Source: Candidatus Heimdallarchaeota archaeon
GTDB lineage: Archaea > Asgardarchaeota > Heimdallarchaeia > JABLTI01
NCBI GenBank assembly: GCA_030614005.1
Contig: JAUWKS010000003.1
Span: 60,001 to 92,000, forward strand
Reading direction: 5' to 3'
DNA: 32,000 nucleotides
Shown here: in pieces, positions 1 through 3,794 of the stretch
Layout: each line of letters begins with the position of its first letter
Position numbering within the stretch: position 1 is the first letter of the stretch
Notes under the pieces: generated by a model
The model's input: only the letters and a program-made list of their open reading frames with translations
Told to the model about the DNA's origin: nothing
Databases searched by the model: none
Made by a program: the position numbers and the translations under genes

Positions 1-226
1 TCAAAGGAGTTTGTCCCCCTAAGTCGTACACTATAAATTCCAAAGATCGGTATTTGTATACTTCAATATTAACTCCGAAAGTAGGTCGAGTAAGAGTAAA
101 TTCTGATCTTAGTATTCTTTTAACAATTGTTGTTTTTCCTGCACCATCTAAACCAACGATAGCAACTGATTTCTTTTCAGCATTTCCTTCTTCTTTTGCT
201 TTAGTTAATCTTCTAAATAAAGACAT
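1..226 (-). CDS. Arf/Sar1-family small GTPase (Asgard Arf-related), 5' part only, runs off the window edge
   Basis: Manual translation from ATG at 226: MSLFRRLTKAKEEGNAEKKSVAIVGLDGAGKTTIVKRILRSEFTLTRPTFGVNIEVYKYRSLEFIVYDLGGQTPL. G1 GLDGAGKTT, G2 TRPTFGVN and G3 YDLGGQ match the Arf consensus GLDxAGKTT / PTIGFN / WDxGGQ. AGGGAA lies upstream as a possible RBS. Not in the ORF track. Confidence 0.9.
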   Translation of the reverse strand, partial: MSLFRRLTKAKEEGNAEKKSVAIVGLDGAGKTTIVKRILRSEFTLTRPTFGVNIEVYKYRSLEFIVYDLGGQTPL

Positions 227-478
227 ATGATTAATTCCCTTTGTTTGTGAAAAGATTATTTATCACTCAGTTTCCCTCAATGAATTATTTTGCAAGGGAA
301 TTCTATATATTATCAGAAATAGCTCTAATACTAAAAGTTTTAGTTTTGGTTAAAAACGAAAAAAAACGGTAAAAAACGACAAAAATCACTTTTCATAGAT
401 AATTTTTTCTTATAGCAAACAAATAAAAAGTTAGTAGATATGATATGGTGAAGGATTAAATAATTATGGTGCTGAAAA

Positions 479-1405
479 ATGAGTCAAGATTATATTATTG
501 AAGTTAGAAATTTAGTTAAAAAGTATGGCTCAGTAGAAGCACTTTCAGAAATATCATTTAAAATAAGTAAAGGACAAATTTTTTCTCTTCTAGGTTCAGA
601 TAGTTCTGGAAAAACTTCATTAATAGAAATTTTAGTAGGTCTGCGAAAACCAACTTCCGGAGAAGCCTTTGTTTTAGGTTTTAATATTAATAGTAAAACA
701 GAGATGCGTGAGATTAAGAAAAGAATCGGCGTATTACCACAAGAATTCAAAACACATGATAATCTTACTGTGAAAGAAAATATTTTGTTTTGGGGAAAAA
801 TGTATGACAAAATGGTTGACCCCATAGAATTAATGAAACTATTGAAACTTGATGAAGTAGCAAATGTTCGATATAAAAAACTGTCAAATACATTGAAACA
901 AAAAGTTGGGATAGCTACTACTCTTGTAAGTGATCCTGAGATTATCTTTCTTGATCAACCTACTGCTGGTCTTGACTATTATATTAAGAAAGAAATTTGG
1001 CAAGTATTGATGGATTTACGTGAACAAGGAAAAACTATCTTTCTAACCTCAAATGATGTATTAGAACCACAAGCAATCGCCGATAGAGTTGCAATACTCC
1101 ATAATGGTATAATAAAAGATATTGGCTCACCCAATGAATTGATTGATAGATATAGTAGTGAAAAGAAATTCATTATAAGATGTCCAAACAAGGATATAAC
1201 TAAGAACGCCTTGAAAGCTTTACAGGAAATCGAAGTTGCAGAAACCGAAACTGGTGATTTAGTTGTTTCAAGCGATGAGATAACCCTACTAGAATTATTA
1301 GAAAAATTAGAGAAATTTAATGTTAAATATTCAGATATAATTACTCAAAGTCCTTCTTTGAATGATGTCTTTCTAATTTTAACAGGAGAAGAATTACGTA
1401 AATAA
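479..1405 (+). CDS. ABC-2/DrrA-type ABC transporter ATP-binding subunit with degenerate catalytic motifs
   Basis: Walker A GSDSSGKT, Q-loop GVLPQE, D-loop AGLD and the C-terminal SLNDVFLILTG tail typical of DrrA-like NBDs. Signature is LSNTL, Walker B is IFLDQ and the switch is LTSN, all non-canonical. Confidence 0.9.
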   Translation: MSQDYIIEVRNLVKKYGSVEALSEISFKISKGQIFSLLGSDSSGKTSLIEILVGLRKPTSGEAFVLGFNINSKTEMREIKKRIGVLPQEFKTHDNLTVKENILFWGKMYDKMVDPIELMKLLKLDEVANVRYKKLSNTLKQKVGIATTLVSDPEIIFLDQPTAGLDYYIKKEIWQVLMDLREQGKTIFLTSNDVLEPQAIADRVAILHNGIIKDIGSPNELIDRYSSEKKFIIRCPNKDITKNALKALQEIEVAETETGDLVVSSDEITLLELLEKLEKFNVKYSDIITQSPSLNDVFLILTGEELRK

Positions 1406-1430
1406 GCTAACTGATATTTGGTGATAAAAT

Positions 1431-2618
1431 TTGAGTGAAGATATTGTCCAATCTGATGAAACACCCCCAAACCAATTCAAATTGTTCATCAGAAAAATAA
1501 AAGCCTTTTTCCGTCCAGTTGGAAATAGCTTAAGGAGAATATCAAATCAAATCGGTGGGCTTAGTTTAGGTTTTTTCAGATCACCTGGATTAATTTTTCT
1601 CACAATTGTTCTACCAATCATCTTAACATTACTATTTGGAGCACTATTTGGTAGTACAATAGATACAAATTATCAGTTAGATGTTCTCGATAAAGATCAA
1701 AGTGATGCGTCAATACAGTTTACCGATTATTTGGGAAATGACACTGGTTTGATGATAGAGGTGCTTGATGAGACAAGTATTAACCCAGTCGAATGGTTGA
1801 AAGAGAATACTAAAACTATTTTACTGGTAATACCAATGAATTGGGGCGCATTTATTAACGATTCAGATCAAACCGATTTAACAGTTTATTATGATCATTC
1901 ATCATCATCTGCAAAAACTACTTTGAAAATAATTGAAGAGGCTGTAATAGAACTCAATTTTGAAATATTAGCAATAGATAATACTTTGGGCGTAGAAACT
2001 GAAAGTCTTTATGTAACTAATTTAGAATTCATTGATTCACTTGTTCCTGGAATAATAATGATTTCTGTTTCAACAATTGCTCTGATTACTAGTCTTAGTT
2101 ATGATATCAACGAAAAACAGAGTGGTATATTACGTAAATTCGTTACAACACCCGTTTTTAAATTCGAATGGGTGTTTGCAAAGCAATTTTGGCAAATAAT
2201 TCTAGCATTTCTTGCTAGTACTTTAACAGTCTTATTTGCTTTAATTTTTGATTTTCAAGTTACAAAATTGCATCCTGCGATGCTAGTAATAATTTTTTAT
2301 GGATCATTAACATTTTCTGGTATAGCAATGATACTCGTAAGACTAATCTCTAATCCAGATGGTGTTATGCTTGCATCTGTATTATTTACTATTCCACAAA
2401 TTCTACTAAGTGGAGCATTAATTCCAATAGATACTTTTCCAACATTTTTACAATATGTCGCTCGGATATTTCCGATATATTATCTAACAGAAGTGATGAG
2501 AGCATTAATGCTCGATCCTTCTCAAGGAGTTTTTTGGATTAATTTCTCCATATCAACAGTATTGGCAATAGGCTTCTTTACTATGGGTATAATAGTCACA
2601 AAATGGAAACAAGATTAA
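1431..2618 (+). CDS. ABC-2 type permease with large extracellular domain
   Basis: One N-terminal TM, a soluble loop (VLDKDQS...SIQF), then IDSLVPG and about 5 TM helices with SGALIPIDTFP...IFPIYY. TTG start preceded by GGTGA. Confidence 0.88.
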   Translation: MSEDIVQSDETPPNQFKLFIRKIKAFFRPVGNSLRRISNQIGGLSLGFFRSPGLIFLTIVLPIILTLLFGALFGSTIDTNYQLDVLDKDQSDASIQFTDYLGNDTGLMIEVLDETSINPVEWLKENTKTILLVIPMNWGAFINDSDQTDLTVYYDHSSSSAKTTLKIIEEAVIELNFEILAIDNTLGVETESLYVTNLEFIDSLVPGIIMISVSTIALITSLSYDINEKQSGILRKFVTTPVFKFEWVFAKQFWQIILAFLASTLTVLFALIFDFQVTKLHPAMLVIIFYGSLTFSGIAMILVRLISNPDGVMLASVLFTIPQILLSGALIPIDTFPTFLQYVARIFPIYYLTEVMRALMLDPSQGVFWINFSISTVLAIGFFTMGIIVTKWKQD

Positions 2619-2636
2619 AGCGGTGGTTGAAAACAA

Positions 2637-3794
2637 ATGGTACCTGAATATCTTCAAAAACTAATCAATTTTTTCACGCACCTCCGAAATAGTTTTAGAA
2701 GGATTAGAAACCACATAGGCATTTCTATACGACTGTTTTATCGATCACCTGGATCAATTTTCCTTCTGGTAATTTACCCTATGATATTGTTATTGCTATT
2801 CGGATCCATTTTTGCAACTGAAGATGCCTTTACATTCCATTTAGAAGTTCAGGATAAAGATGGGACTTCATTTTCAGAAGGATTAATCCAGGAATTAGAT
2901 AATCAAGACATACTTGTTATTCATCGTTTAGATTCAACAATTAATCCCAAAGAGTATTTGCAAGAGAATAATTTACATTCTTGCTTAGTCATACCTCTAA
3001 ATTGGACCGATAATAGCATTAATCCTACTATTTCAACCTCAAATGTAACTCTAATCATCGATCCAAACTCAAATAAAGCGCACAGAGTTGCTCTTATTGT
3101 TTTAAAAACAGTAAAAGATTATTCATTATCTATCAGCGGTGAGGAGCCACCAATTGGAATAACTGAAGTAAACTTCTATTCAGATTCTGTCAGTTATATT
3201 GATTTCTTTATTCCTGGTATTATTGGCGTTATTATCATGAATACTGGAATATTGGGTGTTATCAACCGTCAAGTGCATTTCAAAAAATCAGGCTTATTTA
3301 GAAAATTGGCTACTACACCAATTACCCGTTGGGAATATGCTACAGCGGAAATTGGTTGGCAATATTTAATTGCCTTTTTTACAACTCTCTTAGCATTTTT
3401 AGTGGCATGGGCAGTCTTTTCGTTTAGTTGGGGTAGTTTTGATGAATTGATACCTATAATATTATTTGTGGGAGTGTTGGTATTTTCTGGTATCGGTTTA
3501 ATAATAAGTCAGCTTGTTCGAAATCCCAATAATGCTTTAGCAGTAGGAACGTTAGTAACTCTACCTATGCTGTTTTTAAGTGGAATATTTTTTGATATAT
3601 CTGGTATACAAGCATTGGTCATCATTTCAAAATTCTCTCCCTTAACATATATAGTAGAAGCATTGCGATCTTCAATGATAAATCGAAACTTTTCATATGC
3701 ATGGCTAAATATAGGGATAGCATTTGCTATTGGTATAACAGCTTTTGTTGTTGGCGTATTCCTAACGCAATGGGATGTAGATAAAAAACAATAA
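2637..3794 (+). CDS. ABC-2 type permease, paralogue of the preceding gene
   Basis: Same architecture (VQDKDGT..SEGL, YIDFFIPG, ERE-like FRKLATTP, LSGIFF...SPLTY). 18-bp gap from the previous gene. Confidence 0.88.
   Translation: MVPEYLQKLINFFTHLRNSFRRIRNHIGISIRLFYRSPGSIFLLVIYPMILLLLFGSIFATEDAFTFHLEVQDKDGTSFSEGLIQELDNQDILVIHRLDSTINPKEYLQENNLHSCLVIPLNWTDNSINPTISTSNVTLIIDPNSNKAHRVALIVLKTVKDYSLSISGEEPPIGITEVNFYSDSVSYIDFFIPGIIGVIIMNTGILGVINRQVHFKKSGLFRKLATTPITRWEYATAEIGWQYLIAFFTTLLAFLVAWAVFSFSWGSFDELIPIILFVGVLVFSGIGLIISQLVRNPNNALAVGTLVTLPMLFLSGIFFDISGIQALVIISKFSPLTYIVEALRSSMINRNFSYAWLNIGIAFAIGITAFVVGVFLTQWDVDKKQ

What the first reader, a model, noticed from the sequence alone, without database searches (positions are those of the whole stretch)
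479..3794. ABC-2 system whose only NBD looks like a complete pseudo-ATPase
Seen: the NBD keeps the ATP-binding elements (A-loop Tyr in KKYG, Walker A GKT at 608-616, Q-loop Q, Walker B Asp, D-loop). All three hydrolysis elements are changed: signature LSGG to LSNTL (881-895), catalytic Glu to Gln (DQPT, 953-958) and switch His to Asn (LTSN, 1043-1054). The gene is full length and leads two paralogous permeases with extracellular domains. Established: E-to-Q is the standard ATP-trapping mutation. In asymmetric ABC transporters a degenerate site takes its Walker B/His from one NBD and its signature from the other, so one site stays active. Here all the defects sit in one chain, which would cripple both sites in a homodimer and probably also in a heterodimer. 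Inference: the complex could be an ATP-gated sensor, channel or scaffold, or a dominant-negative regulatory subunit, rather than a conventional exporter.
Basis: partly seen in the sequence, partly recalled or inferred. Interest (0 to 1): 0.72.

Follow-up and report, generated by a model that had tools for sequence, protein, structure and literature searches.

The report
Conserved hydrolysis-dead ABC transporter ATPase paralogue
A Heimdall-group (Asgard) archaeon carries a second, well-conserved copy of a lipid-exporter-like ABC transporter whose ATPase has lost the residues needed to split ATP; the finding is real and unusual, but what the device does is unknown.

Summary
The 308-aa NBD (479-1405) has LSNTL in place of LSGG, Asp-Gln in place of the Walker B Asp-Glu, and Asn in place of the switch His. 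It leads two ABC-2 permease genes.

The three changes have different ages.
- Loss of the signature, His-to-Asn and a remodelled Walker A (Asn-to-Asp, Ala-to-Ser) are fixed in a whole monophyletic paralogue clade. That clade is present in 11 of 11 genomes of one Heimdallarchaeial family.
- Glu-to-Gln (GAA to CAA) occurs only in the window's closest relatives, at 90% identity or more. The 89% sister keeps Glu.

The gene is not decaying. dN/dS is 0.07-0.12 at dS of about 0.5, the same as for the canonical paralogue (0.08).

A canonical three-gene paralogue operon (LSGG, DEP, His) lies on another contig of the same genome. Among about 80 NBD domains in this genome, this is the only one with all three defects in one chain.

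Best reading: a whole-operon duplicate whose NBD still docks on its own permeases and probably binds nucleotide, but no longer works as an ATP-sandwich hydrolase. The complex would then be nucleotide-gated or structural rather than a pump.

It is a new variant of a known kind. The scan has noted other pseudo-NBD systems on unrelated DNA, but not this clade.

The parts
479..1405 (+). Pseudo-catalytic ABC nucleotide-binding subunit, 308 aa (P0001). DrrA/ABCA-like NBD core (residues 1-215) plus a DrrA-type C-terminal domain (216-308).
   Evidence: AlphaFold2 model has mean pLDDT 91.2. Nearest solved chains are ABCA3, ABCA1 and ABCA7 NBDs and 4yer.
593..616 (+). Walker A, G-S-D-S-S-G-K-T (G39-T46). 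The Lys and Thr are kept. Positions 2-5 differ from the canonical paralogue (G-P-N-G-A-G-K-T). Asp41 and Ser43 are fixed in the whole clade.
740..742 (+). Q-loop Gln88, kept here and in 24 of 29 non-redundant clade members.
881..895 (+). Remnant of the signature motif, LSNTL where LSGG-x is expected. Only the Leu is conserved in the clade. The other positions vary freely.
941..958 (+). Walker B, IIFLD-Q. Asp159 is kept. The catalytic Glu is replaced by Gln160 (CAA at 956-958, one transversion from GAA).
   Evidence: Independent contigs.
965..976 (+). D-loop AGLD. Gly164 and Asp166 are invariant in both paralogue clades.
1052..1054 (+). Asn192 at the switch (H-loop) His position. Asn in 29 of 29 non-redundant clade members and His in 30 of 30 canonical paralogues.
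1431..2618 (+). Permease 1, 395 aa. ABC2_membrane_3, type V (ABCA/ABCG/ABCH-like) fold, with an extracellular domain between TM1 and TM2.
   Evidence: Model. Best fold matches are Tribolium ABCH-9C (E 9e-11) and then ABCA1, ABCA4 and ABCG25. dN/dS 0.14.
2637..3794 (+). Permease 2, 385 aa. Paralogue of permease 1 (33% identity), same family and architecture.
   Evidence: dN/dS 0.09-0.11.
227..478 (.). 252-bp AT-rich spacer between the divergently transcribed Arf-type GTPase gene (ends at 226, minus strand) and the NBD start. Presumed promoter region of the operon.
   Evidence: The same divergent arrangement is seen in L033, L034, L035, L037, L038 and L061. Promoter function is inferred, not tested.

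Best explanation
The three genes are one copy of an anciently duplicated ABC-2 (type V, ABCA/ABCH-like) transporter operon. They most likely assemble as two copies of the NBD on a heterodimer of the two permeases.

In this copy the NBD kept three things: its fold, its surface for docking on the permeases, and the residues that hold nucleotide within one subunit (Walker A Lys/Thr, Walker B Asp, Q-loop Gln and, in this lineage, the A-loop Tyr). It lost the residues that act across the NBD-NBD interface to close the ATP sandwich and fire hydrolysis: the signature motif, the switch His, and the Walker A Asn that faces the partner's D-loop. In the window's own lineage the catalytic Glu was then also replaced by Gln.

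The predicted result is a subunit that can still bind ATP but turns it over not at all, or orders of magnitude more slowly than its canonical paralogue. The complex therefore cannot act as a primary pump. It would work as a device gated or stabilised by nucleotide occupancy (a facilitator, channel or scaffold for a hydrophobic or lipid-like ligand), while the canonical paralogue operon does the ATP-driven export.

Shown: the sequence states, their phylogenetic distribution, purifying selection, the operon duplication and conserved synteny. Inferred: loss of hydrolysis, retention of ATP binding, homodimeric assembly and the physiological role.
For: 1. The motif states are confirmed in the DNA.

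2. The degenerate NBDs form one clade with SH-aLRT 100 on a long stem (0.61). It is sister to a canonical clade from the same genomes.

3. Within the clade (29 non-redundant members) these states are seen:
- Fixed: Asp41 29/29, Ser43 28/29, Asn192 29/29.
- Free to vary: signature positions 136-139.
- Kept: Lys45 29/29, Asp159 29/29, D-loop Gly and Asp 29/29.
This pattern indicates remodelling under selection, not random decay.

4. Residues 90-105, between the Q-loop and the helical subdomain, are invariant in both paralogue clades. This fits continued docking on permeases.

5. dN/dS values:
- Pseudo-NBD: 0.07-0.12 at dS of about 0.5.
- Its two permeases: 0.09-0.14.
- Canonical NBD: 0.083.

6. 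The three Gln-bearing operons form a clade (98/98) with the Glu-bearing 89% relative outside it. All use CAA against GAA. This fits one substitution that was then kept through speciation.

7. A complete canonical operon (NBD with LSGG, DEP and His, plus two permeases) lies on contig C26. Permease 1 matches permease 1 and permease 2 matches permease 2 best across the two operons, so the whole operon was duplicated.

8. The degenerate operon keeps the same gene neighbourhood across the clade, down to 55% identity.

9. It was found in 11 of 11 genomes of one family.

10. Established knowledge: Glu-to-Gln at this position is the standard hydrolysis-blocking mutation, and known degenerate sites divide their defects between two chains (review PMC7756269). 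The best-matching solved chain is an ABCA3 entry carrying Asp-Gln at this same Walker B position.
Against: - No biochemical measurement exists. Loss of hydrolysis is inferred from motifs alone.
- 27 of 29 non-redundant clade members keep the catalytic Glu, and the D-loop is invariant. This suggests that some catalytic or dimer-interface function persisted in the wider clade for a long time. The clade ancestor may therefore have been a slow ATPase rather than a dead one.
- ATP binding is itself uncertain here. The middle Gly of Walker A is Ser and position 3 is Asp. Some clade members have also lost the A-loop aromatic residue (7-8 of 29) or the Q-loop Gln (5 of 29).
- Nothing shows which NBDs actually pair in the cell.
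- No expression data could be obtained.
Confidence: 0.6

Rival explanations
1. It is still a true but slow ATP-driven exporter. Asn192 and another carboxylate (for example the clade-specific Asp41 in Walker A) partly replace the His and Glu, so the homodimer hydrolyses ATP by a modified mechanism.
For: - The catalytic Glu is kept in 27 of 29 clade members.
- Asn192 and Asp41 are strictly fixed rather than variable, and the D-loop and Walker B Asp are invariant. Fixed replacement residues look like a new functional arrangement.
- Purifying selection equals that on the canonical pump.
Against: - The signature motif, which contacts the gamma-phosphate across the dimer in all studied ABC ATPases, is not replaced by any new conserved motif. 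It simply varies.
- In the window's lineage Glu-to-Gln is added on top and retained in three species-level lineages with no rise in dN/dS. This is hard to reconcile with hydrolysis being the selected activity.
- Some clade members have also lost the A-loop or Q-loop residues.
Confidence: 0.15
2. The subunit works in mixed dimers with the canonical paralogue NBD from contig C26. It would act either as a built-in asymmetric partner or as a dominant-negative regulator of that pump.
For: - The two NBDs are 49% identical.
- They share an invariant stretch (residues 90-105) in the region expected to contact the permeases, and an invariant D-loop. Cross-assembly is therefore sterically plausible.
- Both paralogues were found together in most genomes of the family.
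Against: - Each NBD gene heads its own complete operon with its own two co-evolving permeases, on unlinked contigs with different conserved neighbourhoods.
- In a mixed dimer each composite site would still carry a defect: this chain's Gln and Asn in one site and its missing signature in the other. The usual logic of one active site and one degenerate site does not apply (PMC7756269).
- Three family genomes showed the degenerate paralogue but no canonical one. These genomes are only 69-85% complete, so this counts for little.
Confidence: 0.12
3. It is a decaying gene, an assembly or sequencing artefact, or a strain-specific loss-of-function allele.
For: Three catalytic motifs are hit at once, and the genome is a metagenome-assembled draft (126 contigs, 90% complete).
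Against: - The reading frame is full length, with a confident fold (pLDDT 91).
- dN/dS is about 0.1.
- The same states appear in many independent assemblies and studies.
- The clade is conserved in 11 of 11 family genomes.
- Both permeases are also under purifying selection.
Confidence: 0.02

Closest known systems
DrrA/NatA-type ABC-2 exporters (NCBIfam TIGR01188 drrA; Pfam PF00005 with PF12698) and their eukaryotic relatives ABCA and ABCH (type V fold)
   Same: - End-to-end match of the NBD to drrA, including the C-terminal domain.
- The best solved sequence relatives are the NBDs of ABCA3, ABCA1, ABCA7 and ABCA4.
- The permease model matches insect ABCH-9C and ABCA1/ABCA4 best, including an extracellular domain after TM1.
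- The operon layout is one NBD gene followed by permease genes.
   Different: - The drrA score of 215 bits is below the curated cut-off of 312.
- The signature motif, catalytic Glu and switch His are all missing.
- Walker A is reduced to the minimal P-loop consensus.
The canonical paralogue operon in the same genome (G000 contig C26, locus L031 6240-9702) and its orthologues (P0054-P0099)
   Same: - Same three-gene architecture.
- NBD 49% identical; permeases 33% and 35% identical, gene for gene.
- Same family distribution.
   Different: - The paralogue has GPNGAGKT, LSGG, DEP and TTH.
- Its extracellular domains are longer.
- Its conserved neighbours are different, an MFS gene upstream and PadR and HAAS genes downstream.
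- It evolves more slowly: mean column entropy 0.69 against 1.15.
Asymmetric ABC exporters with one degenerate site (TM287/288, TmrAB, TAP1/2, CFTR, MRP1, Pdr5)
   Same: They naturally replace the catalytic Glu, the switch His and the signature, and they use tightly bound unhydrolysed ATP as structural glue or as a sensor (PMC7756269).
   Different: - In those proteins the Walker B and His defects lie in one NBD and the signature defect in the other, so one site stays active.
- Here all the defects are in one chain, and no second NBD gene is in the operon.
- This genome has such classical split pairs too, on contigs C108, C13, C3, C69, C71 and C8.
CFTR and SUR (ABC proteins used as a gated channel or a channel regulator)
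   Same: They set a functional precedent for an ABC scaffold whose output is gating or regulation by nucleotide occupancy rather than uphill transport.
   Different: - They have a different fold class (type IV) and are single-chain full transporters.
- One of their sites still hydrolyses ATP.
- The resemblance here is an idea only. Nothing was tested.
Other pseudo-NBD ABC systems noted earlier in this scan (dead KpsT-like subunit in picocyanobacteria, dead-motif MsbA orthologue in Nitrosospira, alphaproteobacterial pseudo-ATPase exporters with a cNMP partner)
   Same: They are intact, conserved ABC components in which the ATPase motifs are degenerate (AI notes that I did not check).
   Different: - They belong to unrelated families and hosts.
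- Those cases were described as having lost the ATP-binding residues as well. This one keeps the Walker A Lys/Thr and Walker B Asp, and it has a canonical whole-operon paralogue in the same genome.

Membership tests
ABC ATPase superfamily (Pfam PF00005 ABC_tran) | Profile match above the curated gathering score | tested here: met
   88.8 bits against a cut-off of 25, covering profile positions 1-137 of 137.
ABC ATPase superfamily (catalytically competent NBD) | Walker A GxxGxGK[ST] | tested here: inconclusive
   The motif is G-S-D-S-S-G-K-T. The Lys and Thr and the outer glycines are kept. The middle Gly is replaced by Ser and position 3 is Asp. It fits the general P-loop GxxxxGK[ST] but not the ABC form.
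ABC ATPase superfamily (catalytically competent NBD) | Signature (C-loop) LSGGQ-like motif | tested here: not met
   LSNTL at 881-895. Only the Leu is conserved in the clade.
ABC ATPase superfamily (catalytically competent NBD) | Walker B hhhhD followed by the catalytic Glu | tested here: not met
   IIFLD is followed by Gln160 (CAA, 956-958). The Asp is kept and the Glu is lost.
ABC ATPase superfamily (catalytically competent NBD) | Switch (H-loop) His | tested here: not met
   Asn192. Asn in 29 of 29 clade members against His in 30 of 30 canonical paralogues.
ABC ATPase superfamily (catalytically competent NBD) | Measured ATP binding and hydrolysis | not testable with these tools
   This needs purified protein.
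DrrA subfamily (NCBIfam TIGR01188) | Score above the curated cut-off of 312.45 bits | tested here: not met
   215.3 bits, although the alignment is full length, 1-302 of 302. This is the closest subfamily, but the protein is not a certified member.
ABC-2 permeases (Pfam PF12698 ABC2_membrane_3 / PF01061) | Profile match above the gathering score for both permeases | tested here: met
   124.5 and 109.2 bits against a cut-off of 31.6. PF01061 scores 71.7 and 91.9 against 26.9.
Type V ABC transporter fold (ABCA/ABCG/ABCH) | Structural similarity of the permease to solved type V transmembrane domains | tested here: met
   Foldseek gives ABCH-9C at E 9e-11 with TM score 0.52 by query, then ABCA1, ABCA4, ABCG25 and ABCG1. 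The model is of moderate confidence, pLDDT 77.
Asymmetric (one-degenerate-site) ABC transporters | Two different NBDs, with Walker B and His defects in one and the signature defect in the other, leaving one consensus site | tested here: not met
   The operon has one NBD gene, and all the defects are in that chain.

The most novel reading that the evidence does not exclude
This is a natural, evolutionarily stable 'EQ-trapped' ABC machine. A homodimer of ATP-binding but non-hydrolysing NBDs has turned an ABCA/ABCH-like lipid exporter scaffold into an ATP-gated passive conduit or sensor. This would be a prokaryotic parallel to the step from pump to channel in CFTR, in the archaeal lineage closest to eukaryotes. 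It may be functionally tied to the Arf-type GTPase with a longin domain that is transcribed divergently from it in most genomes.
Probability: 0.15. Interest if true: 0.85.

Novelty: new variant of a known kind. Interest (0 to 1): 0.6.

Why it matters
ABC transporters are defined by ATP hydrolysis at two composite sites. The field accepts one degenerate site but has almost no well-documented case of a conserved transporter in which both sites are predicted dead.

This clade offers a natural series within one protein family, with matched permeases:
- the canonical paralogue;
- signature-less, His-to-Asn forms that keep Glu;
- forms with the additional Glu-to-Gln.

That series makes an old question directly testable: what can ATP binding alone do in an ABC transporter, and what is hydrolysis for? 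It also cautions annotators, because every database names these proteins simply 'ABC transporter ATP-binding protein'.

The limits are that the organisms are uncultured, the substrate is unknown, and the clade is confined to one archaeal family.

Tried and rejected
- **Complex prediction.** NBD homodimer with two ATP: score 0.03, no verdict. It is not used as evidence either way.
- **Expression.** No RNA holder was listed among the public runs. The holders were DNA contigs from cold-seep and marine-sediment metagenomes, so nothing can be said about expression.
- **Profile search of 1.84 billion representatives with the degenerate-clade alignment.** The clade collapses to one 50% cluster (representative P0044). 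The next hits are multi-NBD ABCA-like and tandem proteins. The six I inspected carry LSGG, SGG or SAG signatures and Asp-Glu. None carries this clade's combination, although single stretches have Ala or Gln in place of the switch His. No second, independent lineage with this motif combination turned up. The list was dominated by summed scores of multi-domain proteins, so it is a weak test.
- **Literature.** I found no description of this clade, nor of a homodimeric ABC-2 NBD with all three defects. The library is incomplete, so this is not proof of novelty.
- **Order of the Glu-to-Gln event.** A protein tree of the NBD alone and a DNA tree of the operon left the subclade unresolved. Only the concatenated protein tree resolved it. 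DNA for P0009 and P0012 could not be fetched.
- **Pseudogene or artefact.** Rejected (see rival explanations).
- **Linkage to the neighbouring Arf-longin GTPase.** Considered. The GTPase gene is missing from the otherwise syntenic loci of P0044 and P0012, and the whole neighbourhood is syntenic anyway. Adjacency is therefore weak evidence, and I spent no job on it.
Full report
**1. What is at the coordinates**

The window is G000 contig C35, 60001-92000. ORF 479-1405 (+) encodes a 308-aa protein, P0001. It is followed after 25 bp by ORF 1431-2618 (395 aa) and after a further 18 bp by ORF 2637-3794 (385 aa).

Pfam assigns ABC_tran to the first gene (88.8 bits, cut-off 25). It assigns ABC2_membrane_3 plus ABC2_membrane to both others. 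NCBIfam's best model for the NBD is TIGR01188 (drrA). The alignment is end to end, but the score of 215 bits is below the curated 312.

- Tyr16.
- GKT at 608-616.
- Gln88.
- LSNTL at 881-895.
- Asp-Gln at 953-958 (gat caa).
- AGLD.
- Asn192 at 1052-1054.

One refinement concerns Walker A, which reads G-S-D-S-S-G-K-T. It differs from the canonical paralogue (G-P-N-G-A-G-K-T) at all four inner positions, including the middle Gly. 'ATP-binding elements kept' is therefore true only of the minimal P-loop.

**2. A clade, not an accident**

A search of 5.8 billion proteins, followed by alignment, separates the 120 best hits into three groups.
- P0001-P0053 plus P0100 are 53-100% identical to the query. 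Where sources name them, the names are almost all Heimdallarchaeota or 'Asgard group'. All have a degenerate signature (Leu followed by variable residues), Asn for the switch His, and Walker A of the G-P/S-D-G/S-S-G-K type.
- P0054-P0099 and P0101 are 46-52% identical and come from the same kinds of genomes, sometimes the same contigs. All are fully canonical (GPNGAGKT, LSGG, DEP, TTH).
- P0102-P0120 are canonical outgroups.

In the tree the degenerate group is one clade with SH-aLRT 100, on a stem of 0.61 substitutions per site, and it has longer internal branches than the canonical group. Its earliest branch, P0044, has only half-degenerate motifs (LSSGM, GPDGAGKT, Asn for His). This suggests that the His and Walker A changes came first and signature decay followed.

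**3. The Glu-to-Gln change is recent**

Only P0001-P0007, at 90% identity or more, carry Asp-Gln. P0008 (89%), P0009 (81%) and all the rest keep Asp-Glu. In a non-redundant set, 27 of 29 clade members have Glu.

Among GTDB species representatives, Gln occurs in G000, G010 (93% identical) and G001 (90%) only. A concatenated protein tree of the three operon genes places the three Gln-bearing operons together (98/98), with the Glu-bearing P0008 operon outside. The NBD-only protein tree and the DNA tree were unresolved.

The codon is CAA in all three, against GAA in the relatives. Contigs from three separate studies cover the codon without variation.

**4. Selection**

Pairwise Nei-Gojobori estimates at unsaturated divergence, with dS of 0.5-0.8:

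| Gene | dN/dS |
|---|---|
| Pseudo-NBD | 0.07-0.12 |
| Permease 1 | 0.14 |
| Permease 2 | 0.09-0.11 |
| Canonical NBD, G000 against G001 | 0.083 |

Values within the Gln group (0.07, 0.10) are no higher than the value against the Glu-bearing sister (0.12). The AlphaFold2 model is confident (pLDDT 91.2).

**5. What is kept and what is lost**

I compared non-redundant sets of 29 degenerate and 30 canonical sequences.
- Fixed differences: Asn41Asp and Ala43Ser in Walker A, Arg171Lys, His192Asn, Gly226Ser and Glu295Asn.
- Relaxed in the degenerate clade: signature positions 136-139, the two residues after Walker A, and the residues after the switch.
- Invariant in both clades: Walker A Gly/Gly/Lys, Walker B Asp, D-loop Gly and Asp, and a run of residues between 90 and 105 (Phe90, Thr92, Leu96, Val98, Glu100, Asn101, Trp105). 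That run follows the Q-loop, where NBDs of this class meet the permease coupling elements. The structural assignment of this run is my inference from general ABC knowledge.
- Further erosion in some members: the A-loop residue is no longer Tyr in 11 of 29 (no aromatic or His side chain in 7), and the Q-loop Gln is lost in 5 of 29.

From my own knowledge of ABC dimer structures (not verified here), the three remodelled elements all act across the NBD-NBD interface: Walker A position 3, the signature and the switch His. The retained elements hold nucleotide within one subunit. The pattern therefore reads as loss of the ATP-sandwich catalytic mode, with the fold, permease docking and probably nucleotide binding retained.

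**6. The canonical partner**

The genome has about 80 recognisable NBD domains. The nearest to P0001 (49% identical) is on contig C26. It heads an operon of identical architecture: a canonical 319-aa NBD plus permeases of 402 and 423 aa.

Across the two operons, permease 1 matches permease 1 (232 bits against 131) and permease 2 matches permease 2 (249 against 152). The permease duplication therefore predates a duplication of the whole operon. The degenerate copy has shorter extracellular domains.

The two operons sit in different, separately conserved neighbourhoods.
- Degenerate operon: AsnC-type regulator, Arf-type GTPase (minus strand), then the operon, then a Ham1-family gene, a membrane protein, a GNAT and PAN. 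This order holds from 93% down to 55% identity.
- Canonical operon: an MFS transporter gene upstream and PadR and HAAS genes downstream in both loci read. An MBL-fold gene also lies upstream, and in L039 a methyltransferase gene sits directly upstream.

In the census, P0001 is the only domain combining signature, Glu and His defects in one chain. Six ABCB-type gene pairs show the textbook split of defects between partners.

**7. Distribution**

Among 31 related genomes, the degenerate paralogue was found in 11 of 11 genomes of the window's family (two genera). Neither paralogue was found at E of 1e-60 or better in 19 genomes of three other families of the same class. A profile search of 1.84 billion 50%-identity representatives returned a single cluster for the clade.

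**8. What kind of transporter**

The best solved sequence relatives of the NBD are ABCA3, ABCA1, ABCA7 and ABCA4. The top hit is an ABCA3 entry that carries Asp-Gln at the same Walker B position. The permease 1 model (pLDDT 77) matches insect ABCH-9C best (E 9e-11; solved in complex with ceramide), then ABCA1, ABCA4 and ABCG proteins. The system is thus a type V ABC-2 transporter of the architectural kind that handles lipids and other hydrophobic molecules. The substrate itself is unknown.

**9. Mechanism, with likelihoods**

*Most likely (about 0.6).* This is a homodimer of nucleotide-binding but non-hydrolysing NBDs on its own permease heterodimer. It would function as a nucleotide-gated or nucleotide-stabilised device rather than a pump, and the canonical paralogue would retain active export. 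The strongest argument is that Glu-to-Gln could be fixed and then maintained under undiminished purifying selection. This implies that hydrolysis was already not the selected activity.

The strongest counter-argument is the long retention of Glu and of the D-loop in the rest of the clade. That fits a slow ATPase in the clade ancestor.

*Rivals.*
- A modified but real slow pump: 0.15.
- Mixed dimers with, or regulation of, the canonical NBD: 0.12.
- Decay or artefact: 0.02.

The remainder is unassigned.

**10. Known or new**

I found no description of this clade, nor of a conserved single-NBD ABC-2 system with all three defects. Earlier notes of this scan report other pseudo-NBD systems in unrelated bacteria. 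The general phenomenon is therefore recurrent, but this family and its stepwise series are new to the scan. I class it as a new variant of a known kind.

Noticed in passing
G000 contig C74:13892-15356 (locus L006 1300-2764, minus strand), outside the window: Two adjacent MacB/LolD-type NBD genes (251 and 238 aa) lie downstream of an FtsX-type permease. Both have Gln in place of the Walker B catalytic Glu (…ADQPT and …GDQIT) while keeping the switch His. The neighbouring 387-aa ORF reminded me of an actin-family protein; I ran no search on it. This is a second natural Glu-to-Gln case in the same genome.
   Followed up: partly
window 2-226 (minus strand; continues upstream, L032 9276-10226): An Arf-type small GTPase of about 316 aa is transcribed divergently from the pseudo-NBD operon. 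The pairing is kept in L033, L034, L035, L037, L038, L061 and the P0009 contig. The GTPase gene is missing from the otherwise syntenic loci of P0044 (L036) and P0012.
   Followed up: partly
L031 9894-10998 (G000 contig C26, just downstream of the canonical paralogue operon): The canonical operon in this genome is followed by a 178-aa ORF and a 179-aa small GTPase. No such genes were called at the corresponding place in L039, so this second ABC-GTPase adjacency may be coincidental.
   Followed up: no
G000 contig C27:2254-3924, outside the window: This is a tandem two-NBD protein. Its second half has Glu for the Q-loop Gln, LSEGE for the signature and Asn for the switch His, while its first half is near-canonical.
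   Followed up: no
G010 contig C24 (L052) compared with G000 contig C26: G010's pseudo-NBD is 93% identical to the window's. The canonical paralogue found there is only 68% identical to the window genome's canonical NBD, and its permeases only 50% and 31%. The canonical operon may have been replaced, or a different paralogue was hit.
   Followed up: no
window 1431-3794 compared with L031 7210-9702: The extracellular domains of both permeases in the degenerate operon are about 20-35 residues shorter than in the canonical operon, through several deletions. Permeases 1 and 2 of the degenerate operon are also more alike (202 bits) than those of the canonical operon (144 bits).
   Followed up: no
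window 593-616 and window 2-226: The clade-specific Walker A of the pseudo-NBD (G-x-D-x-S-G-K-T) has Asp at the same P-loop position as the neighbouring Arf-type GTPase (G-L-D-G-A-G-K-T). This is probably coincidence. Whether the pseudo-NBD has changed its nucleotide preference was not testable.
   Followed up: no
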